Assembly: GCA_964543705.1 (NCBI GenBank)
Contig: CAZIZP010000006.1
Location: forward strand, 16-64,015
Source: an uncultured Chitinophagaceae bacterium
GTDB taxonomy: Bacteria > Bacteroidota > Bacteroidia > Chitinophagales > CAIOSU01
Reading direction: 5' to 3'
Length of the DNA stretch: 64,000 nt
Shown here: positions 21,650 to 49,813 of the stretch, piece by piece
How positions within the stretch are numbered: the first letter of the stretch is position 1
Layout of the letters: every line of letters starts with the position of its first letter
Program-made: the position numbers and the translations under genes
Notes under the pieces: model-generated
What the model saw: the letters and a program-made list of their open reading frames with translations, nothing else
Databases searched by the model: none
What the model was told of the DNA's origin: nothing

Positions 21650-24619
21650 TTATCTTAACAAGGTTACGCTTCCTGTTAAAGTTTGAATATTCAGGTCGGT
21701 GGTAACAAACTTTAAATAATATACATACACGCCCTGTTCCTGTTCTTTACCTTTAAAGGTGCCATCCCAAATTTGTGTTGGGTCTTTCGTTTCAAATACT
21801 TTTTGTCCCCAACGATTGTGTATGGTTAAATAAAACTCTTTAAACGAGCCACCATAAATCTGAAACAAATCGTTTTCGCCATCGCCATTGGGCGAAAAAG
21901 CATTTGGAATAAACACCGGTACTTCAGGGCTGGTGTTTATAGTTACTGAATCTTGCGCTTCACAGCCAAATTCATTGGTATAAACAAGCGTTACTATTGT
22001 GGTATCGTCAACTCTTACTGTAGGGCTTTCGCAATCTGTACAACTTAAAACATCTTCAGGCTGCCACGAATAGCTTACATTACCGCTTGCCGCTGGGCTA
22101 ATTACTGGTGTAATTTGAATACCGCTTCCACGGTTTACTGTGGTATCATTGCCTAAATCTACAGTTGAAGGCGAGCCATAAACAATATTTACGGTATCGC
22201 TTGCCAAACAGCCATTGGCATCGGTAACTACTACTACATAACTGCCTGAAGTATCAGCAGAAAGTGTTTGTGTGGTATCGCCTGTATTCCATTGATAACT
22301 TACAAAACTGCTTCCTGCATCTAGGGTAACTAAGATGTCTTCGCAAACAATAATATCGTTACCAAGATTTACCGGTGTAGCGGCAATTTCATTTACCGTA
22401 AATGTAGCTGTTCCGGTGCAAGTGGCATCAGCAGCTGTTACACTGTAAGTGCCCGCTTGTGTTACAGTAATAGAATCATTGGTGCTGTTATCACTCCAGG
22501 TATAAGTAGTGCCTCCTGTAGCGGTAAGTACTGTGCTTGTGCCGCTACAAAAATCTGCATTACCATCTATAGTTACTACAAGGCTCGAAGTTTCGGTAAC
22601 TACTGCAGAAGCTGTTCCGATGCATCCGTTGGCATCGGTAGCCGTAACATCATAGCTGCCCTGTGTAACAGTTATAGCGGCCGTTGCATCGCCTGTATTC
22701 CACAAATAAGTATCGCCACCACTTGCAGTTAAGGTAGTGTTGCCGCCTATGCAGTAATTCAACAAACCATTAATGCTAATTACAGGCAGTGCATTTTCGA
22801 TAACTGTAGCATCGGCTGTGGCTGTGCAGCCATTGGCATCTGTTCCGGTTACGGTGTAGTTGCCTTGTGTAACCGTAACAGCAGCAGTTGCATCGCTGGT
22901 ACTCCACAAATAACTGTTGCCTCCGCTTGCGGTAAGGGTGGTATTGCTTCCTGCGCAATAACTCAAGGTGCCATTAATTGCAATAGCAGGGGCAGCACTT
23001 TCTGTTACACTGGCAGAAGCTGTTCCGGTGCAGCCGTTGGCATCGGTAGCGGTAACGGTGTAGTTGCCCTGTGTAACGGTAATGGCAGCCGTAGTGCTGT
23101 TGCCGGTATCGTTCCATACATAGCTGTTACCCCCGCTTGCAGTAAGCGTGGTGTTACCGCCCGGGCAGTAACTTAAATTTCCTGCAATATTCACGGTTAA
23201 GCTGGTAAGTTCTGTTACGGTTGCGGTTGCCGTGTCGGCACAACCGTTGGCAGCAGTAACCAATACCACATAACCACCTTGTGTAACGGTTACGCTGGCT
23301 GTATTGCCAATATTATTTCCGCCTAAATCGAACCAGGCATAGTTGCCCCCGCCACTGGCAGTAAGGGTAGTGTTGCTTCCGGTGCAATAGGTTAAATTGC
23401 CGCTGATAGCAGCAGTAGGCGCGGTAAGTTGTGCATCGTTGCTGAAAGCGTTGCTTGTGCCCGAATCGCAGTTGCCATCGCTGGCAATAACGGTATAGTT
23501 GGTTCCGGGTGTAGTGCCGCTGATTACCCCCCCTGCACCTGCTGTGGGGCCTGCGGGCGAAAAAATATAAGTAAGCGATGCATTATAATTGGTAATAGTG
23601 CTGCTGCCTGCTGCTGTGCAGCTTGCCGCAACAGTAGTAATGGTAGGTATTGCCGGAGGGGCAGTTTGCGCTGCATTGCTGAAAGCAGCACTTGCCGGAG
23701 AATCGCAACCATTTTCTCTTGCAATAACGGTATAGCTGGTTCCGGTAGTCATGCCGTTTATAGCACCACCTGCGGCTACTGTAGGCCCTGCGGGCGTAAA
23801 CACATAAGTTACGTTTGCATTGTAATTGCTAATAGCACTGCTGCCTGCTGCTGTGCATGTGGGTGGGGTTGATCCTATGGTTGGGGTAGGCGGTAAAACC
23901 ACCGGACCACCATAAGTAATTAAAATGCCCCCTGCAGCGCCACGGCCACCATTGCTATCGCCACCGCCTGCACCGCCACCACCATATACCGCACCGGGAT
24001 TATTAGTACTGGCACCACCTGCACCGCCATTAGGCCCTGCCGCTGAACCACCGGCACCGCCACTGCCCCCGCTGCCATTGTTTCCAGCCCCACCGGTTGT
24101 ATTGGTAGTGCCGCCACTTGCAGTTCCACCGGCACCACCTGAACCGGTGCCTCCACACGACTCCCCTTCTCTTCCTCTTTGTCCGCCATTCGCTACTAAA
24201 TTGATAGGATTACCTCCTGAATCTGTACCTGTAAACGTAGTGTTTCCTCCGTTAGAACCCGGGTCGCCATCGCTTAAATCTGAACCGTTTCCGCCACCAC
24301 AACCCCCTGAACCAATGGTGTAAGTAAAAGTAGCTCCGGGCGTAACAGGAAAAGTTCTGGTAGCAAAGCCACCGGCACCGCCACCGCCACCACCTCTGGT
24401 GTTACAAATACCACCACCACTACCACCGCCACCACCACCGGCACCACCGCCACCGCCATATACTTCAACAGTAATAGAAGTTACACCACAGGGTACCGTC
24501 CAAGTGCCCGATGCGGCTGCGGCATTACAGTTGGCAGCACCGTTTAAGGTTTCATCTTGTGCGGTGGCATTAAAAAAACTGAATAATACAAATAGCAGAA
24601 TAGTAATAAGTGCTTTCAT
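21650..24619 (-). CDS. T9SS type B (CHU_C / gliding-motility-associated C-terminal domain) surface protein with N-terminal glycine-rich domain and Ig-like repeats
   Basis: 989 aa. Signal peptide MKALITILLFVLFSFFNATAQ. GTWTVPCGVTSITVEVYGGGGGAGGGG...GILITYG glycine-rich domain. 2 x about 85-aa and 6 x about 70-aa repeats (LTASGGNSY.W...ITVTQGNYTVTATDANGC). C-terminal IPNAFSPNGDGENDLF...NRWGQKVF...WDGTFKG...GVYVYY is a type B sorting domain. Confidence 0.9.
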   Translation of the reverse strand: MKALITILLFVLFSFFNATAQDETLNGAANCNAAAASGTWTVPCGVTSITVEVYGGGGGAGGGGGGSGGGICNTRGGGGGGAGGFATRTFPVTPGATFTYTIGSGGCGGGNGSDLSDGDPGSNGGNTTFTGTDSGGNPINLVANGGQRGREGESCGGTGSGGAGGTASGGTTNTTGGAGNNGSGGSGGAGGSAAGPNGGAGGASTNNPGAVYGGGGAGGGDSNGGRGAAGGILITYGGPVVLPPTPTIGSTPPTCTAAGSSAISNYNANVTYVFTPAGPTVAAGGAINGMTTGTSYTVIARENGCDSPASAAFSNAAQTAPPAIPTITTVAASCTAAGSSTITNYNASLTYIFSPAGPTAGAGGVISGTTPGTNYTVIASDGNCDSGTSNAFSNDAQLTAPTAAISGNLTYCTGSNTTLTASGGGNYAWFDLGGNNIGNTASVTVTQGGYVVLVTAANGCADTATATVTELTSLTVNIAGNLSYCPGGNTTLTASGGNSYVWNDTGNSTTAAITVTQGNYTVTATDANGCTGTASASVTESAAPAIAINGTLSYCAGSNTTLTASGGNSYLWSTSDATAAVTVTQGNYTVTGTDANGCTATADATVIENALPVISINGLLNYCIGGNTTLTASGGDTYLWNTGDATAAITVTQGSYDVTATDANGCIGTASAVVTETSSLVVTIDGNADFCSGTSTVLTATGGTTYTWSDNSTNDSITVTQAGTYSVTAADATCTGTATFTVNEIAATPVNLGNDIIVCEDILVTLDAGSSFVSYQWNTGDTTQTLSADTSGSYVVVVTDANGCLASDTVNIVYGSPSTVDLGNDTTVNRGSGIQITPVISPAASGNVSYSWQPEDVLSCTDCESPTVRVDDTTIVTLVYTNEFGCEAQDSVTINTSPEVPVFIPNAFSPNGDGENDLFQIYGGSFKEFYLTIHNRWGQKVFETKDPTQIWDGTFKGKEQEQGVYVYYLKFVTTDLNIQTLTGSVTLLR

Positions 24620-24888
24620 AACTGGGTTTATGGTTGATTATTGCAGCAGTTTTTATTTCAGGATAAAGAATGAAAATTAAAACCTGCTGTTTTTTTACAC
24701 GGCACTAAAAATACTTAATACTAATGAAAATTTCAGCTTAGAGTTTTAATATCCTTTAAACCATAAAGCACCTAACAGGCTTTCTTTAACATGCGCTTAA
24801 CAATATACTGAACCTGATAAATAGCCATAAACTGTTTTTCAGCAAGCTAATAATGGTATTTTTTATTCATTACAGGTAATTGTAATTG

Positions 24889-25075
24889 TTTGGCATTTAG
24901 ATGTTAGCTGTTAGTTTTATGTTTTAAGTTATCAGTTATCAGTTTTTGGTAGAGCCTTTAGCCTTTAGCTATTAGCCTTTAGTTTTCAGGAAAGCCAAGT
25001 CCCCCTTTGAAGGGGGCAGGGGGATGATTTTTGAGTTTTGAATTTCGATTTTTGAATTTGTTTAGGATTTAGCTT
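24889..25075. repeat. Composite heptad-phased low-complexity element (TTWTCAG/TTAGCCT heptads, GC hairpin CCCCCTTTGAAGGGGG, ANTTTTG heptads)
   Basis: Read directly. About 14 in-phase 7-mers lie at 24889-24990. A hairpin lies at about 25001-25016. ATTTTTG AGTTTTG AATTTCG ATTTTTG AATTTGT lies at 25027-25061. The element is homologous in inverted orientation to 49501-49690. Confidence 0.8.
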
Positions 25076-25128
25076 TCCTGTTAAAATACTTCCCGTTATA
25101 GGGCTTTTAGTATGGCAAAAGGTGGCGA

Positions 25129-25156
25129 TTTGTTAAAAATGAAATAAGTATATTTT
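25129..25156 (+). promoter_or_regulatory. Promoter-like TTTG-N16-TATATTTT inside the conserved leader, pointing into 42-bp array A
   Basis: Resembles the Bacteroidota -33 TTTG / -7 TAnnTTTG, with the last base T not G and the spacer shorter than the reported optimum. The same motif, spacing and downstream ATG (19 nt) recur at locus B. Confidence 0.35.
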
Positions 25157-25187
25157 AAGTAAGACTTACAGAACCATGCTATCGCTA

Positions 25188-25302
25188 CTCCAACTTTGGA
25201 TATGCCCTTCCAGACGTCTGAAACCCCGACTCCAACTTTGGATATGCTCTTCCAGAGGTCTGAACCCCCGACTCCAATTTTGGATATGCTCTTCCACGAG
25301 TG
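25188..25302. repeat. 42-bp tandem array A (about 2.7 copies), reverse complement of array B
   Basis: Units CTCCAACTTTGGATATGCYCTTCCAGACGTCTGAAACCCCGA. The conserved leader at 25078-25187 is about 90 percent identical by eye to the reverse complement of 47846-47952. Confidence 0.9.
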
Positions 25303-25615
25303 TGAAACTGCATTACGAATTATTAGATAAGTGAAACACGAAAAAGGAAAGGCACCGGCAACAAGCGTATTGGCCCTAAATGCTACATACTTTGCTATGG
25401 TATGTTTTTTTAACATAACTACTTGCTGAAAAGAGGCTATGGAAAAAATTGCATTTCAAATATAACAATTAAAACTATGTAAAAAGAAAATTTTTGCGCT
25501 GAAGCTAACCTGGTGGCGATTGCCGGGCTGTATGTATTCCATGCTGCAAAGGTGCAATTGGCATGGCTACTCGCATAATGAAATTATGAACTATAAAAGG
25601 AGGATAGTATTTTCA

Positions 25616-39147: not shown

Positions 39148-39513
39148 ATGGATATAAAAACCTATCTCACGCAAAGCGAAAAAACTTTATCAGAACAGTT
39201 TCATGCAAGCGATGCCAAAACTCAAAAGCTATTGCATGCTGCTATTGGATTAACTACTGAAAGTGGTGAATTATTAGACCAAATGAAAAAAGTTATTTTT
39301 TACGGAAAAGAATTAGACCGAACCAATATAAAGGAAGAATTGGGCGACCTGATGTGGTACATGGCTATTATGTTGCGCGAACTGGATTTAGATTTTGAAG
39401 ATGTTTTAGAAGTAAACATCAATAAGCTTAAAGCTCGTTATGGTGAAAAATTTAATTCAGAAGGTGCTCTTAACAGAAATTTAGACAAAGAAAGAGAGAT
39501 ATTAGAGCAGTAA
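39148..39513 (+). CDS. MazG-like nucleoside triphosphate pyrophosphohydrolase domain protein
   Basis: 121 aa. All-alpha, with EELGDLMWY (EExxD/E metal motif) and E..GE upstream, typical of small MazG/dimeric-dUTPase-like proteins. Confidence 0.7.
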   Translation: MDIKTYLTQSEKTLSEQFHASDAKTQKLLHAAIGLTTESGELLDQMKKVIFYGKELDRTNIKEELGDLMWYMAIMLRELDLDFEDVLEVNINKLKARYGEKFNSEGALNRNLDKEREILEQ

Positions 39514-46123: not shown

Positions 46124-47350
46124 ATGTTTCATAACTATATTTTTCGGTTTTTATTTACAGTGGTATTATTTTTTTCTTCGGAAATAAAAGCGCAGTTTAC
46201 TATATACAATACCCAAAATTCCGGGTTGCCAAGCAATACCATTAACTGCATTACAGTGGCATACGACAGCAGCGTATGGGTAGGTACCGATTTCGGCTTA
46301 GTACATTTCAGCAATAACAACTTTTTGGTGTATCAAACTGCTAATTCTAATATTACCGATAATGACATACGGTGCATTGGCATTGCTAAAGACAGCACCA
46401 TTTGGATTGGCACTTTTTTAAACGGCTTCTCAAAGTTTAAGAATGGTGTTTTTGAAAACTACAATACACAAAACAGCAATCTGCCTTCAGATTTTATAAA
46501 GTGCATGGCTTTCGATACGCTGGGTACTGCATGGCTGGGCACTTCTAACGGTATCGTTCAGGTAGCCGATACAGGCCTGGTAATTTATAATATGAGTAAC
46601 ACCCCGCTATCTACCAACAACATTATTAGCATTTACATAGATAAAAGCAATGTGAAATGGATGGGCACATTAAACGGTGGCTTGGTAAAGTTTGATGATA
46701 ACGTCTGGACAATTTACAATATCAATAATTCTCAATTGCCCGATAATACTATTGTTGATATTAAAGAAGACCACAACCAGATATTATGGCTATCAACGCC
46801 TGCTGCTGCCATTGTGCAATTTAACCGCAGCTCGTGGAATTTTCTAAACCCACTTAACAGCCCTTTGCCCGATTACTCGATAAATGAAATTGCCTTCAAC
46901 AATAACAACACAACCTATATTGCAACTAAAGAAAGCGGGCTGGCCAAGTATGCAGGCAGTTTACAATGGAATTTTTATAACGCGAGCAACAGCAATATTG
47001 CCTCAAATAATCTTACAGCTGTGGCAGTTGATTTTCAAAACAAAATTTGGGCAGGTACCCAACAGCATGGCTTGTTATTACTTGATGAAACCATAACAAA
47101 CATTTCAAAAGATACAGAAACGTTCAGCATACAAATTTTTCCCAACCCTGCTGAAGATTTTATTATGCTGAATAGCGGCCATAATACTATTCAACGGGTA
47201 AGCATATTTAGTATTGAAGGAAAACTTTTTATGGACACCGCCCCGCATAACGATACTGTAGAAATTACAGCACTTCCAAAAGGCACTTACCTGCTTAAAG
47301 CTGTTTCAACCCACGGAAACACTTTTATTCAAAGGTTTATTAAACATTAA
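46124..47350 (+). CDS. Two-component-regulator-propeller (Reg_prop) repeat protein with T9SS type A sorting domain
   Basis: 408 aa with a signal peptide. Repeated YNTQNS.LPSN.I..I..D....W.GT..GL motifs. C-terminal IQIFPNPAEDFIMLN. Confidence 0.8.
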   Translation: MFHNYIFRFLFTVVLFFSSEIKAQFTIYNTQNSGLPSNTINCITVAYDSSVWVGTDFGLVHFSNNNFLVYQTANSNITDNDIRCIGIAKDSTIWIGTFLNGFSKFKNGVFENYNTQNSNLPSDFIKCMAFDTLGTAWLGTSNGIVQVADTGLVIYNMSNTPLSTNNIISIYIDKSNVKWMGTLNGGLVKFDDNVWTIYNINNSQLPDNTIVDIKEDHNQILWLSTPAAAIVQFNRSSWNFLNPLNSPLPDYSINEIAFNNNNTTYIATKESGLAKYAGSLQWNFYNASNSNIASNNLTAVAVDFQNKIWAGTQQHGLLLLDETITNISKDTETFSIQIFPNPAEDFIMLNSGHNTIQRVSIFSIEGKLFMDTAPHNDTVEITALPKGTYLLKAVSTHGNTFIQRFIKH

Positions 47351-47441
47351 TCTGAAGAGTTTATTTGCGATTTTCTCATTAGTACTTTAGCGAACGCTGT
47401 AATCAAGTGGAGATGATTTTGCAAGTTATAAAAATTGCTGC

Positions 47442-47507
47442 TTCATTAATCGTTCCAAGTGACCGCAGGCACGCACTATGCTACGTGCGAACACTTGGAA
47501 GAACAGG
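47442..47507 (+). repeat. 65-bp hairpin repeat element, copy H1
   Basis: TTCATTAATCG-TTCCAAGTG-(30 nt with inner GCACG/CGTGC stem)-CACTTGGAA-GAACAGG. The outer stem is 9 bp and perfect. It abuts array B. Confidence 0.75.
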
Positions 47508-47516
47508 GCTCGTTCC

Positions 47517-47845
47517 GCACTCGTGAAAGAGCATATCCAAAGTTGGAGTCGGGGCTCCAGACGTCTGGAATGGCATATCCAAAGTTGGAGTCGGGGGTTC
47601 AGACGTCTGGAAGAGCATATCCAAAGTTGGAGTCGGGGTTTCAGACGTCTGGAAGGGCATATCCAAAGTTGGAGTCGGGGTTTCAGACGTCTGGAAGAGC
47701 ATATCCAAAGTTGGAGTCGGGATTTCAGACGCCTGGAAGGGCATATCCAAAGTTGGAGTCGGGGTTTCAGACGTCTGGAAGGGCATATCCAAAGTTGGAG
47801 TCGGGGTTTCAGACGTCTGGAAGAGCATATCCAAAATTGGAGTAA
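47517..47845. repeat. 42-bp tandem array B (about 7.5 copies, no spacers); each unit holds two palindromes
   Basis: Unit starts at 47531, 47573, 47615, 47657, 47699, 47741, 47783 and 47825 give a period of exactly 42. The unit is GCATATCCAAAGTTGGAGTCGGGGTTTCAGACGTCTGGAAGR. It contains the perfect 12-bp palindrome CCAGACGTCTGG and TCCAA-AG-TTGGA. Confidence 0.95.
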
Positions 47846-47873
47846 CGATAGCATGGCTCTGTAAGTCTTACCT

Positions 47874-47901
47874 AAAATATACTTTTTCCATTTTTAACAA
47901 A
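47874..47901 (-). promoter_or_regulatory. Promoter-like TTTG-N16-TATATTTT in leader B, pointing (minus strand) into array B
   Basis: The motif, the spacing and the 19-nt distance to the conserved ATG (47852-47854) match locus A. Confidence 0.35.
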
Positions 47902-47968
47902 TCGCCACCATTTGCCACATTATAAACCCTATAACGGGAAGTATTTTAACAGGTAAAAGACTTGCTTT

Positions 47969-48033
47969 TTCATTAAGCCTTCCAAGTCGCCCCAGCTCAG
48001 CACAAGGCTATGCGGGAACCTTGGAAGAACAGG
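47969..48033 (+). repeat. 65-bp hairpin repeat element, copy H2
   Basis: TTCATTAAGC-CTTCCAAG-TCGCCCCAGC...CTATGCGGGAAC-CTTGGAAG-AACAGG. It shares its flanks with H1 and its core with the reverse complement of H3. Confidence 0.75.
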
Positions 48034-48056
48034 AACTTAATATTACTGTATTTAGC

Positions 48057-48090
48057 AAAAAAAACGAGCAATATTATTTGCTCGTTTTTC
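48057..48090 (-). terminator. Rho-independent (bidirectional-looking) terminator after the MORN/YwqK-like gene
   Basis: AAAAAAAA-CGAGCAA-TATTAT-TTGCTCG-TTTTTC: a 7-bp stem with A-run and T-run flanks, about 100 nt downstream of the stop at 48184. Confidence 0.7.
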
Positions 48091-48183
48091 TATTTTCTGT
48101 GAAAATGATTTCTTTATTTTATTGGGCTTTTAGAAAGTGTTTTTGCTAAAAAGTGATGTTTTGATACATTACCCATTACCATC

Positions 48184-49044
48184 TTATTCGTAAATAAATT
48201 GAAAACTATTAACATGCTCTTCTTTAACAAAATTATTATCATCTAGTAATTTAGCTTTTACTTCAAATATATGTTGCCCCTTTTTTATAAAGTCATTAGA
48301 ATACACACTGTAGTATTTGTTATTAGAAGATATTTCTTCCCATTTCGAATTAAATCCATTTATTCTAATAAAAACTTCTGATTTAAATTCAGGCGGTACT
48401 ACAGGATAAACATGAACCAAAAACTGTTCATCAACCTTATAAATAAAATCATCTTCTTTTCTTACATGAATTAAAGGAGACATAGCCCCATCTTCACTCA
48501 GAAACACTCCATGATCATATTGACGTACATAAACTAAACGCCCTGCAAGATCGAAAAATTCATAATTAATAATTTGCCCATCTAAATTAAATTCATATTG
48601 ATGAGATAATTGTTTGCCATTTTTCCAGTATTCAATTGACTTAATGGATTTATCCTTTACAGTATCGCTATCAAAATACCAAACCCAAACACTGTCTTTA
48701 AACCCATTTTTATTATTTCCAATATATTCAAGATTACCACTATTATAATATCCTTTCTGTGTACCTTCTTTCTTCCCGTTAATATATAATACCTCGACCA
48801 TTTTTTTCCCATTAGGATGATAAAATTTCAAAACTCCATCAACTATAGTATCATCTTTTACAATTCCATCAACTATGGTATTATTCTTCACCAACTTATA
48901 TGGCAACTCACTCTCAATGGTGCCGTCAGGATAGTATCTTATTGAAACATTATTATTTTTTATATCTTCGTCTTTCTTTGCATGTTCTCTCTGTTGACAT
49001 GAAATCCCTAATAAAAAAAGTAGCATTAGCAGACATCTATTCAT
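48184..49044 (-). CDS. MORN-repeat-variant (YwqK-family, antitoxin/immunity-like) lipoprotein
   Basis: 286 aa. Lipobox LLGISC. Repeats YPDGTIESELPY, FYHPNGKKMVEVLYINGKKEG, GYYNSGNLEYIGNNKNGFKDSVWVWY, IEYWKNGKQ. Sampled lines give about 25-28 percent G+C. Confidence 0.75.
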   Translation of the reverse strand: MNRCLLMLLFLLGISCQQREHAKKDEDIKNNNVSIRYYPDGTIESELPYKLVKNNTIVDGIVKDDTIVDGVLKFYHPNGKKMVEVLYINGKKEGTQKGYYNSGNLEYIGNNKNGFKDSVWVWYFDSDTVKDKSIKSIEYWKNGKQLSHQYEFNLDGQIINYEFFDLAGRLVYVRQYDHGVFLSEDGAMSPLIHVRKEDDFIYKVDEQFLVHVYPVVPPEFKSEVFIRINGFNSKWEEISSNNKYYSVYSNDFIKKGQHIFEVKAKLLDDNNFVKEEHVNSFQFIYE

Positions 49045-49196: not shown

Positions 49197-49263
49197 CCTG
49201 TTCTTCCAAGTCTTCCCGCATAGCCATGAGCGTTTGCTGGGGCGACTTGGAAGCTTTTATGAA
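49197..49263 (-). repeat. 65-bp hairpin repeat element, copy H3 (inverted relative to H1/H2)
   Basis: The plus strand reads CCTGTT-CTTCCAAGTC-TTCCCGCATAGCC...GCTGGGGC-GACTTGGAAG-CTTTTATGAA. Its reverse complement matches H2 (CTTCCAAGTCGCCCCAGC...CTATGCGGGAA). The stem is 10 bp and perfect. Confidence 0.75.
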
Positions 49264-49500
49264 AAAAGAAGTCTCTGACTTCTTTACATTTAAAACTATA
49301 AATCCCCCTACTGTAGTAGCATCCGCTACTACCCAAAACCCTAAAGCATCCGCTTATATTTTTCATCTTGTTTCAAGATAAGTATTTTCTAAAATATTTA
49401 CTTCACCCATTTTTTTAAATCCACCATAATCAGTGCTATCCTTTAATCCATCTCATCTGCGATGCTGACATACTTTTTTGAATAAACTCAATTGAGAGAA

Positions 49501-49690
49501 ATGCTAAATCCTAAACAAATTCAAAATACAAAGCTCAAAATTCAAAAAGCTAATGGCTCTAGCAAAAAACTGATAACTGATTACTGAAAACTGATAACTT
49601 AAAACATAAAACTAAAGGCTAATAGCTAAGGGCTAACGGCTCTACCCAAAACTGAAAACTGATTACTGAAAACTGAAAACTTATTACATA
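49501..49690. repeat. Heptad-phased low-complexity element (CAAAnnn, CTGAWWA, CTAAnGG heptads), inverted homolog of 24889-25075
   Basis: CTGATAA CTGATTA CTGAAAA CTGATAA CTTAAAA CATAAAA CTAAAGG CTAATAG CTAAGGG CTAACGG ... CTGAAAA CTGATTA CTGAAAA CTGAAAA. The end GCTAAATCCTAAACAAATTCAAAA is the reverse complement of the locus A end. Confidence 0.8.
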
Positions 49691-49813
49691 ATACATTCCT
49701 GCCTATAAGCCATTTCATTGTAATTCAAAAAATATTTTTCGCTTCCGTGAAACTCATTTTTGTTTTCTGCGTACAAGGCAGAAACTATTGTGTAATTAAA
49801 ACTATTTTGAATC

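What the first reader, a model, noticed from the sequence alone, without database searches (positions are those of the whole stretch)
47517..47952. Leader-plus-array locus B: about 7.5 spacer-less copies of a 42-bp unit with two palindromes, behind a promoter-like leader
- **Periodicity:** The array has exact 42-bp periodicity, with unit starts at 47531, 47573 and so on to 47825.
- **Unit content:** Each unit contains the perfect 12-bp palindrome CCAGACGTCTGG and the near-palindrome TCCAA-AG-TTGGA.
- **Variation:** Differences between units fall in a few spots: GGGGYTYCAG, one GACGYC, and GGAAKRGCAT.
- **Leader:** The adjacent about 105-bp leader (47846-47952) carries TTTG-N16-TATATTTT on the minus strand, aimed into the array.
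- **Repeat ORF:** 19 nt after the box, an ATG opens a 14-aa-repeat reading frame (LQLWICPSRRLKPR)n.
- **What it is not:** I cannot match this to a CRISPR, since there are no spacers. It also does not fit an ordinary microsatellite or any ncRNA class I know.
- **Candidate roles:** It could be a transcribed structured-repeat RNA, a translated basic Cys-repeat peptide, or an operator/iteron-like protein-binding array.
Basis: partly seen in the sequence, partly recalled or inferred. Interest (0 to 1): 0.7.

Follow-up and report, generated by a model that had tools for sequence, protein, structure and literature searches.

The report
Dispersed 42-bp double-palindrome repeat array
This is a real, non-coding, spacer-less tandem array, one of two copies in the window, and it belongs to a so far undescribed family of 42-bp repeats carrying two palindromes exactly two DNA turns apart, found between genes in Bacteroidota including Ignavibacteria; it most likely works as a DNA-level protein-binding or architectural element beside promoters, not as a CRISPR, a peptide gene or a classical structured RNA.

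Summary
47527-47843 is an indel-free 42-bp tandem array of 7.5 copies, attached to a 110-nt leader. A second leader plus array sits at 25077-25309.

It is not a CRISPR, because it has no spacers and no cas genes. It matches no Rfam family. It is not coding: relatives carry stops in all six frames.

Searches with patterns and with a neighbouring gene uncovered at least 20 related arrays in metagenomes and Ignavibacteria genomes. All have period 42. In 12 of 13 arrays profiled, the two best dyad centres lie exactly 21 nt apart. The arm sequences differ between lineages through compensatory changes.

Mismatches in the arms show no G·U-over-A·C bias on either strand (60 versus 79). The period never drifts from four helical turns. 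Both facts argue for a constraint on duplex DNA rather than on an RNA fold.

The arrays lie in promoter-proximal intergenic DNA. In Ignavibacteria one always precedes a conserved helical-bundle protein gene.

In the window, the leader carries a plausible sigma-A-type promoter (TTTG-N16-TATATTTT) aimed into the array, so transcription remains possible.

Best reading, at about 0.4 confidence: a phased array of dyad sites for dimeric DNA-binding or architectural proteins. It is a new variant of dispersed palindromic repeat arrays.

The parts
47527..47843 (-). Array B: 7.5 units of 42 bp. On the minus strand each unit reads ACTCCAAYTTTGGATATGCYCTTCCAGACGTCTGAAACCCCG. It holds dyad P1 (TCCAA-YT-TTGGA) and dyad P2 (TTCCAGA-CG-TCTGAAA), with centres 21 bp apart.
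   Evidence: TRF; pattern search; unit register and dyad scoring
47512..47526 (-). Degenerate terminal half-unit (CACGAGTGCGGAAC on the minus strand). It is shared with locus A and marks the 3' end of the duplicated element.
   Evidence: sequence; homology between A and B ends here
47844..47953 (-). Leader B, about 110 nt, roughly 91% identical to leader A.
   Evidence: alignment; BLAST 91% over 234 nt; exact 27-mer shared
47874..47901 (-). Promoter-like box TTTG-N16-TATATTTT, aimed into the array. The predicted start is near 47869.
   Evidence: 2 matches against 0.14 expected; same N16 spacing as TTTG-N16-TATATTTG before the MazG gene at 39148; -7 box consensus TAnnTTTG at -12 to -5 (PMC9723704)
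25077..25186 (+). Leader A, with the promoter-like box at 25129-25156.
25187..25309 (+). Array A: 2.9 units of the same 42-bp repeat, including the degenerate terminal half-unit CACGAGTGTGAAAC.
   Evidence: TRF
25385..25412 (+). Weak hairpin followed by T7, a possible terminator about 75 nt after array A.
   Evidence: fold -6.6 kcal/mol, z -0.6; suggestive only
49389..49425 (-). Locus C: a diverged copy of the leader's promoter-like module. It is followed by an unrelated body of about 130 nt and a terminator (49285-49262). It shares the upstream low-complexity block with locus A.
   Evidence: alignment A2; BLAST; fold z -3.2
47416..47507 (+). REP-like GC-rich hairpin element abutting the 3' end of array B. 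It is a separate repeat family.
47943..48033 (+). Second copy of the REP-like hairpin element, abutting the outer end of leader B.

Best explanation
Locus B, and its twin at 25077-25309, is a member of an undescribed family of dispersed intergenic tandem arrays.

**The unit.** It is exactly 42 bp, which is four turns of B-DNA. It carries two different dyad-symmetric elements whose centres are exactly 21 bp apart, which is two turns.

**Proposed mechanism (inferred).** The array works on duplex DNA. It presents a row of dyad sites on one face of the helix. Dimeric DNA-binding or architectural proteins load onto these sites cooperatively, next to a promoter, much like an operator, an upstream activating array, a centromere or an iteron array. 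The proteins are unidentified and encoded elsewhere.

**Window-specific arrangement.** The array is fused to a portable leader of about 110 nt with a sigma-A-type promoter that fires into it. The array is therefore probably also transcribed, or it controls that promoter.

**What is shown.** The repeat, its family, the 42/21 geometry, the compensatory evolution of the arms, the absence of coding, and the absence of an RNA-type strand bias.

**What is inferred.** Protein binding, and any regulatory consequence. Copy number differs between the two loci (3 versus 7.5 units); slippage or unequal exchange is the presumed cause.
For: **Geometry**
- TRF gives period 42 for every array of the family that was examined. 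This includes the arrays in nine loci (L183-L191, six of them distinct) found through a neighbouring protein rather than through the repeat sequence.
- In 12 of 13 arrays profiled, the two best dyad centres are 21/21 nt apart. Background pairing is about 0.25, against 0.6-0.9 at the centres.
- No indel has become fixed, even though the arm sequences differ completely between lineages.

**Compensatory evolution of dyad symmetry**
- In the P2 helix, 6 of 7 pairs change on both sides. The covariation score is 0.354, against 0.168 in shuffles (0 of 500 reach it) and at most 0.128 when partners are slid.
- P1 also changes in a compensatory way once ascertainment by pattern is removed. L183 has TTCTGA/TCAGAA at the same centre.

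**No RNA signature**
- Over 16 arrays the arm mismatches are G·T 60 and A·C 79. A·C exceeds G·T in 9 lineages, and the reverse holds in 5.
- Rfam finds nothing.
- The arms flank a 2-bp centre, which is poor for hairpin loops and usual for dimer sites.

**Position**
- The arrays lie in promoter-bearing intergenic DNA.
- In Ignavibacteria a 42-bp array lies 110-190 nt upstream of the same helical-bundle protein gene in all nine loci fetched through that gene. It has the gene's orientation in L107 and L183-L191 and the opposite orientation in L120 and L076, which suggests orientation-independent action.
- In one sub-lineage the 5' flank, read on the opposite strand, looks like TTG-N16-20-nAAnTTTG aimed at the divergent neighbour (my reading).

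**Multi-copy per genome, sharing the same dyads.** The window has 2 loci. Metagenome Ga0114951 gives L033 and L108. Metagenome Ga0307423 gives L107 and L130.
Against: - No binding protein has been identified, and no conserved partner gene lies near the window loci.
- Arm sequences that are free to vary while staying complementary are the classic signature of nucleic-acid stems, not of protein recognition. Under this model the proteins would have to co-evolve in each lineage, or recognise shape.
- In the window, the only promoter-like box points into the array, which places the dyads downstream of the start site. That is natural for a transcript and unusual for an activator array.
- Locus C suggests that the leader module is a genuine small-transcript promoter.
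- The promoter readings in the relatives are consensus matches in AT-rich DNA and are weak in L082 and L188.
- The mismatch counts are not phylogenetically independent.
Confidence: 0.4

Rival explanations
1. **Transcribed structured-repeat RNA.** The leader promoter makes an RNA of about 250-400 nt that consists of alternating small hairpins (P1, P2). It acts as a multivalent decoy or scaffold for an RNA-binding protein, or self-associates through its palindromes.
For: - The promoter-like box is conserved in both leaders and has the same N16 spacing as a gene promoter in the window.
- Locus C has a related promoter module followed by a folded body and a terminator.
- A hairpin followed by T7 lies after array A.
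- Compensatory changes keep both dyads complementary.
- Some lineages have 4-nt centres (AAAA, AAAG) that would make good loops.
- Both strands fold far better than shuffles, with z -8.4 and -7.0.
Against: - There is no excess of G·U over A·C on either strand.
- In the window itself, the wobble favours the strand opposite to the promoter.
- An RNA fold does not explain the strict 42-nt period and the 21-nt spacing.
- Most dyads have 2-nt centres, and the window's arms are only 5 bp long.
- The arrays occur in both orientations relative to the conserved Ignavibacteria gene.
- Rfam finds nothing. The high fold z-scores are automatic for any array of palindromes.
Confidence: 0.27
2. **Selfish or near-neutral dispersed repeat.** The element resembles BIME, BOX or mycobacterial MIRU repeats. 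It spreads and expands by hairpin-dependent slippage or by a hairpin-recognising enzyme, with only incidental effects on neighbouring genes.
For: - It is multi-copy within genomes, with genome-specific sequences.
- Copy number varies, and the terminal units are degenerate.
- It lies among other intergenic repeats: REP-like hairpins and heptamer blocks.
- The neighbouring genes vary.
Against: - The period and the dyad geometry are conserved across deeply diverged lineages without a single fixed indel.
- The array is kept at an orthologous position before one gene family across Ignavibacteria.
- It has no terminal inverted repeats.
- It has no consistent GTAG or CGTC tag (sequence inspection; tag definition from the abstract of PMC3733652, listed).
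- The one IS200-like (RAYT-type) transposase gene seen nearby, in L106, has its own different REPs.
- It is absent from viral, phage and plasmid collections.
Confidence: 0.22
3. **Translated repeat peptide.** The ORF 47854-47426 encodes (LQLWICPSRRLKPR)n.
For: An ATG lies about 15 nt after the predicted start, and the frame is open in both window loci.
Against: - Five of the six frames are open in the window array.
- The variable positions are non-synonymous (P/S/H).
- The open frame differs between lineages, and L186, L190 and L130 have stops in all six frames.
- A search of 5.8 billion protein clusters found nothing.
Confidence: 0.02
4. **Degenerate CRISPR-like or guide-RNA array**, either spacer-less or resembling a TIGR tandem guide array.
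For: It has a leader followed by a repeat array, and the repeats are palindromic.
Against: - Units abut without spacers, and they differ at only 1-3 positions.
- There are no cas or other nuclease genes in 64 kb.
- It matches no Rfam CRISPR repeat family.
Confidence: 0.01

Closest known systems
BIME-2 / REP clusters of enterobacteria
   Same: Intergenic, multi-copy tandem arrays of alternating palindromic units. The sequences are species-specific and the architecture is conserved. They are known DNA-level binding platforms for gyrase, IHF and Pol I (my knowledge).
   Different: REPs are inverted copies of one palindrome, carry a GTAG or CGTC tag, and are tied to RAYT transposases. Here there are two unrelated dyads in a fixed 21/21 register, no tag, no RAYT link, and a polar leader.
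BOX elements of Streptococcus pneumoniae (boxA-(boxB)n-boxC)
   Same: A modular dispersed element with a 5' module followed by a variable number of tandem units of about 45 bp. It is intergenic and can affect neighbouring gene expression (my knowledge).
   Different: boxA and boxC pair with each other and the element behaves like a MITE. Here the 5' and 3' flanks show no complementarity. The unit geometry (two dyads, 42 bp) is specific to this family.
Plasmid centromere and iteron arrays (F sopC 12 x 43 bp, R1 parC, 19-22-bp iterons)
   Same: Spacer-less direct repeats, each with a dyad or protein site, phased in whole helical turns. Sequences diverge with their cognate binding protein. They often overlap a promoter (my knowledge).
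   Different: Those lie on plasmids next to par or rep genes. These arrays are chromosomal, occur at several loci, have no par or rep neighbour, and are absent from 72,556 plasmid records.
MIRU-type bacterial minisatellites
   Same: Dispersed intergenic tandem repeats of 40-100 bp, with variable copy number and a unit length that is a multiple of 3.
   Different: As far as I recall, MIRUs have no paired dyads and sit inside operons with overlapping small ORFs. Here there is dyad covariation and no conserved frame.
CsrB/RsmZ-type sponge RNAs
   Same: Multi-copy loci with differing numbers of short hairpin modules behind a dedicated promoter.
   Different: Those are not exact tandem repeats, and they carry GGA loops for CsrA. 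Here there is no loop motif, no G·U bias and a strict period.

Membership tests
CRISPR array | Repeats separated by unique spacers of similar length | tested here: not met
   Units are contiguous, with period 42 and 0% indels, and differ at 1-3 positions
CRISPR array | cas genes nearby, or a known repeat family | tested here: not met
   Pfam scan of all ORFs of at least 90 aa in the window finds no Cas domain; no Rfam hit
REP/BIME (RAYT-associated) | Palindrome with a conserved GTAG or CGTC tag at its foot | tested here: not met
   The dyads of different lineages share no tag. CGTC occurs only inside some P2 cores. The tag criterion comes from the abstract of PMC3733652 (listed).
REP/BIME (RAYT-associated) | Cognate RAYT gene flanked by the same REPs | tested here: inconclusive
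   There is none in the 64-kb window. The IS200-like (RAYT-type, by its sequence motifs; not scanned against Pfam) gene in L106 has other REPs. The rest of the source genome was not available.
MITE / BOX-like element | Terminal inverted repeats, or complementary end modules | tested here: not met
   Local alignment of each 5' flank against the reverse complement of its 3' flank does not exceed shuffles in any of 13 loci
Plasmid iteron or centromere array | Location on a plasmid or phage next to rep or par genes | tested here: not met
   The window has ordinary chromosomal Bacteroidota gene content. There is no match in the plasmid or phage collections and there are no arrays in viral contigs.
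Plasmid iteron or centromere array | Direct repeats phased in whole helical turns, each with a protein-binding dyad | tested here: inconclusive
   The geometry is met: 42-bp period and dyad centres 21 bp apart. Protein binding is not testable here.
Known structured RNA (Rfam) | Match to a covariance model at the gathering score | tested here: not met
   0 matches at gathering score in the window. In 47300-48200, only chance-level hits with E of at least 0.036 and scores below half the gathering cut-off.
Functional RNA stem (generic) | G·U tolerated far more than A·C on the transcribed strand | tested here: not met
   G·T 60 versus A·C 79 over 16 arrays
Protein-coding repeat | A conserved open frame across relatives | tested here: not met
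   Stops in all six frames in L186, L190 and L130; the open frame differs between lineages; no protein homologues
Bacteroidota sigma-A promoter (leader) | -33 TTTG and -7 TAnnTTTG at suitable spacing | tested here: inconclusive
   TTTG-N16-TATATTTT matches 7 of 8 positions in the -7 box and has the same spacing as the MazG promoter-like site. No expression data are available.

The most novel reading that the evidence does not exclude
The 42-bp double-dyad arrays are a new class of bacterial cis-element. They form a phased platform, four helical turns per unit, on which lineage-specific dimeric proteins build a nucleoprotein filament next to promoters. This would be a chromosomal counterpart of plasmid centromere or operator arrays, or a bacterial enhancer or insulator. 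It is conserved across Bacteroidota including Ignavibacteria, and copy number would set the dose. An equally novel alternative is that the transcript of multivalent palindromes self-assembles into an RNA scaffold.
Probability: 0.3. Interest if true: 0.8.

Novelty: new variant of a known kind. Interest (0 to 1): 0.6.

Why it matters
- Bacteroidota and Ignavibacteria regulation is poorly charted, and very few cis-elements beyond the -33/-7 promoter are known.
- This repeat family has an invariant geometry of four helical turns and dyads that covary. It is kept before one conserved gene across Ignavibacteria and dispersed to other promoter regions. That makes it a ready-made handle for finding an unknown DNA-binding or RNA-binding system.
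- It would also explain recurrent assembly breaks in these genomes.
- It gives a clean natural test of helical-phasing constraints on repeat evolution.
- If instead it proves to be a selfish repeat, it is a new, structurally constrained type outside the REP/RAYT and MITE models.

Tried and rejected
**Searches that found nothing useful**
- Rfam at gathering score and at E of 10 or less: nothing.
- Exact unit core against GTDB representative genomes: 21 single chance hits, and the source genome is not there.
- A chimeric translation of the four open reading frames listed across the array, searched against 5.8 billion protein clusters: no hit.
- Viral contigs with two patterns: either unrelated arrays or matches inside coding sequence.
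- Plasmid and phage BLAST: no match.
- Four literature searches on the repeat family found no description of it.

**Hypotheses tested and dropped**
- Terminal inverted repeats or MITE structure: not significant.
- A RAYT/REP link: the one IS200-like (RAYT-type) gene seen, in L106, has its own REPs.
- A partner gene in the window: all ORFs scanned, and none is plausible.
- Complementarity of the unit to other window sequences, as sRNA targets: only chance 9-11-mers.
- The 174-aa ORF downstream of array A as an analogue of the Ignavibacteria gene: unrelated (hhalign probability 0.1), and no family match.

**Ignavibacteria neighbour protein**
- The structure model has pLDDT 85 and is an elongated helical bundle.
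- It has no fold match with E below 0.1 in the PDB or the viral library, so it does not look like a DNA-binding protein.

**Caveat.** The conservation of P1 in the first 12 metagenome loci follows from my search pattern. It was corrected using the arrays found through the neighbouring gene.

Full report
**1. What is in the sequence**

- Tandem Repeats Finder reports an array at 47527-47843 with period 42, 7.5 copies, 94% matches and no indels. It reports a second array of the same unit, in the opposite orientation, at 25187-25308 with 2.9 copies.
- The 33-nt unit core occurs 9 times with at most 3 mismatches, against 0 in shuffles.
  - The perfect 12-bp palindrome CCAGACGTCTGG is present in one unit only. 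Five others read TCAGACGTCTGG, and one has GACGCC.
  - Five of the six frames, not one, are open across the array.
- The leader is real. 47956-47723 on the minus strand and 25074-25307 on the plus strand are 91% identical over 234 nt.
- Both loci end with the same degenerate half-unit, CACGAGTGYGRAAC. The duplicated element is therefore leader, then array, then a degenerate end.
- Short-read assemblies from three sequencing runs reproduce the flanks. One breaks inside the array, so this is not an assembly artefact.

**2. Surroundings**

- All ORFs of at least 90 aa were scanned against Pfam.
- The window is ordinary Bacteroidota chromosome: type IX secretion cargo, SprB repeats, PorP/SprF, PEPCK, DprA, a gyrase-B/ParE-type topoisomerase subunit and exopolysaccharide genes.
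- There are no cas, rep, par, transposase or reverse-transcriptase genes.
- Locus B lies between two convergent genes. It is bracketed by two copies of an unrelated REP-like GC hairpin (47416-47507 and 47943-48033), and a third copy lies at 49197-49274.
- Locus A lies in a 1-kb gap, preceded by heptamer low-complexity blocks that recur at 49497-49700.

**3. The leader**

- TTTG-N16-TATATTTT occurs in both leaders and nowhere else in the window.
- The sigma-A -7 box of Bacteroidota is TAnnTTTG at positions -12 to -5 (PMC9723704).
- A gene promoter-like site in the same window, before the MazG gene at 39148, reads TTTG-N16-TATATTTG with the same spacing.
- A third locus at 49425-49389 on the minus strand has a diverged copy of this module, and shares upstream DNA with locus A. 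It is followed by a different body of about 130 nt that folds well (z -3.2) and ends in a canonical terminator.
- This makes a real promoter plausible. The predicted starts are near 47869 (minus strand) and 25161 (plus strand). There are no expression data.

**4. What it is not**

- **No known RNA family.** Rfam gives nothing at gathering score and only chance-level hits at E of 10 or less.
- **Not a CRISPR.** It has no spacers.
- **Not coding.**
  - A chimeric translation of the four open reading frames listed across the array found no homologue among 5.8 billion protein clusters.
  - The variable positions change the amino acid.
  - Relatives use different open frames or none. L186, L190 and L130 have stops in all six frames.
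- **Not viral or plasmid-borne.** It is absent from phage and plasmid records and from viral contigs as an array.
- **Not a MITE.** There are no terminal inverted repeats.

**5. A family**

Among the hits were 12 loci with 42-bp arrays built like the window's. Each unit has P1, then a short C-rich linker, then a second dyad P2, then a linker.
- P2 differs by lineage: CAGA/TCTG, CTAAG/CTTAG, TGAA/TTCA, GGAA/TTCC, CTAA/TTAG and TACG/CGTA.
- Two metagenomes each gave two loci with the same P2 (L033 and L108; L107 and L130), as does the window. The arrays are therefore multi-copy within a genome.
- On 51 distinct units, 6 of the 7 P2 pairs change on both sides. The covariation score is 0.354, against 0.168 in shuffles (0 of 500 reach it) and at most 0.128 for slid partners.
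- P1 conservation in this first set is an artefact of my search pattern.

**6. An unbiased sample**

- Three of the arrays lay next to the same unknown protein of about 230 aa.
- Its homologues are annotated as Ignavibacteriaceae or Ignavibacteriales hypothetical proteins. Many sit on very short contigs.
- I fetched nine loci through this protein, from six look-ups. Six of them are distinct and three are near-duplicates. Every one had a 42-bp array 110-190 nt upstream of the gene.
- In these arrays P1 has also changed by compensatory substitutions at the same centre: TTCTGA-AAAG-TCAGAA and TTCCA-AAAA-TGGAA.
- A dyad-symmetry profile made without any motif assumption puts the two best centres exactly 21/21 nt apart in 12 of 13 arrays.
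- TRF gives period 42 for every array of the family that was examined, sometimes with an 84-bp super-period.

**7. DNA or RNA?**

- Three observations favour a constraint on duplex DNA.
  1. Across 16 arrays, the non-Watson-Crick positions in the arms are G·T 60 and A·C 79. The direction differs between lineages. A functional RNA stem should show a strong G·U excess on one strand.
  2. The period has stayed at exactly 42, and the spacing at exactly 21, while the arm sequences were completely replaced. Indels in the 3-6-nt linkers would be harmless to hairpins but would break helical phasing (42 = 4 x 10.5).
  3. Most dyads have a 2-bp centre, which is usual for dimer sites and awkward for hairpin loops.
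- In Ignavibacteria the array precedes the conserved gene in either orientation. It has the gene's orientation in L107 and L183-L191 and is inverted in L120 and L076.
- In one sub-lineage the conserved 5' flank, read on the opposite strand, resembles a promoter (TTG-N16-20-nAAnTTTG) aimed at the divergent neighbour, whose start lies 53-120 nt further on. This is my reading of consensus matches. It is strong in L084, L183, L130 and L123 and weak in L082 and L188.
- The neighbour on the leader side is divergent in 14 of 19 loci.
- Points for RNA remain.
  - The window's promoter points into the array.
  - Locus C looks like a small-RNA gene with a related promoter.
  - Sequence-free complementarity is the hallmark of stems.
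- The high fold z-scores are automatic for arrays of palindromes and are not informative.

**8. The Ignavibacteria neighbour**

- The protein models confidently (pLDDT 85) as an elongated helical bundle.
- It has no Pfam, PHROG or NCBIfam family, no PDB sequence match, and no fold match with E below 0.1.
- It does not look like a DNA-binding protein.
- The window's 174-aa ORF downstream of array A is unrelated to it.

**9. Verdict**

- The locus is a real member of an undescribed family of dispersed, polar, promoter-proximal arrays of a 42-bp double-dyad unit.
- I rank the explanations as follows.
  - A DNA-level phased binding or architectural array, like an operator, centromere or iteron array: about 0.4.
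  - A transcribed hairpin-repeat RNA: about 0.27.
  - A selfish or near-neutral repeat: about 0.22.
  - A peptide or a CRISPR-like reading: 0.02 or less each.
- The closest known systems are BIME-2/REP clusters, pneumococcal BOX elements, MIRU minisatellites and plasmid sopC, parC or iteron arrays.
- The defining features of each were tested where possible and are not met. I therefore file it as a new variant of the general kind (dispersed palindromic tandem repeats), not as a member of any of them.

Noticed in passing
window 47416-47507 (+), 47943-48033 (+), 49197-49274 (-): A REP-like GC-rich hairpin family (cattaa..cTTCCAAGT...CTTGGAAGAACAGG) in an AT-rich genome. Two copies bracket locus B in direct orientation, and one follows the terminator of locus C.
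   Followed up: partly
window 49262-49425 (-): A candidate small-RNA gene. It has a promoter-like module related to the array leader, a body of about 130 nt with three hairpins (fold z -3.2), and a canonical terminator AAGAAGTC-AGA-GACTTCTTTTTT. It has no Rfam match.
   Followed up: partly
window 24880-25079 (+) and 49497-49700 (-): Shared low-complexity blocks of heptamer repeats (cagtttt, tagcctt), ending in ttttgaatttgtttaggatttagc. They lie upstream of both leader A and locus C.
   Followed up: partly
window 24410-24458: An ACCACC tandem repeat near the 5' end of the 989-aa glycine-rich type IX secretion cargo gene (minus strand), which encodes a Gly-rich run.
   Followed up: no
L107, L120, L076, L183-L191: An Ignavibacteria-specific helical-bundle protein of about 230 aa, with no known family, is always preceded by a 42-bp double-dyad array. 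Its neighbours on the other side are often restriction-modification or defence genes (Mrr, N6/N4 methylase, MjaI, KAP NTPase), so the pair sits at the edge of a variable island.
   Followed up: partly
L069, L074, L148, L152, L157, L159, L160 (IMG/VR and metagenome contigs): 59-bp tandem arrays in putative phage contigs. Each unit carries TCCAACTTTGGA twice, plus a GGCTG...CAGCC hairpin. Their relation to the 42-bp family is unknown.
   Followed up: no
L106 10065-10350; L060 3944-4213; L093 482-751; L045 4698-4982: Arrays made of 21-bp half-units, each with one P1-like dyad (periods 42 = 2 x 21 and 63 = 3 x 21). This suggests that the 42-bp unit arose from two 21-bp units.
   Followed up: partly
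L106 7700-8700: An IS200-like (RAYT-type) transposase gene, judged by its sequence motifs and not scanned against Pfam, flanked by its own REP hairpins (GCTCCnnnnGGAGC), about 1.7 kb from a 21+21-bp array.
   Followed up: partly
L096 3458-3550 and 3925-4020: Direct repeats of about 95 nt with GC hairpins bracket the 42-bp array. This echoes the REP-like elements that bracket locus B in the window.
   Followed up: no
window 25517-25560: Short echoes of leader motifs (GGTGGCGATT, CCATGCT) about 210 nt downstream of array A. They may be chance.
   Followed up: no
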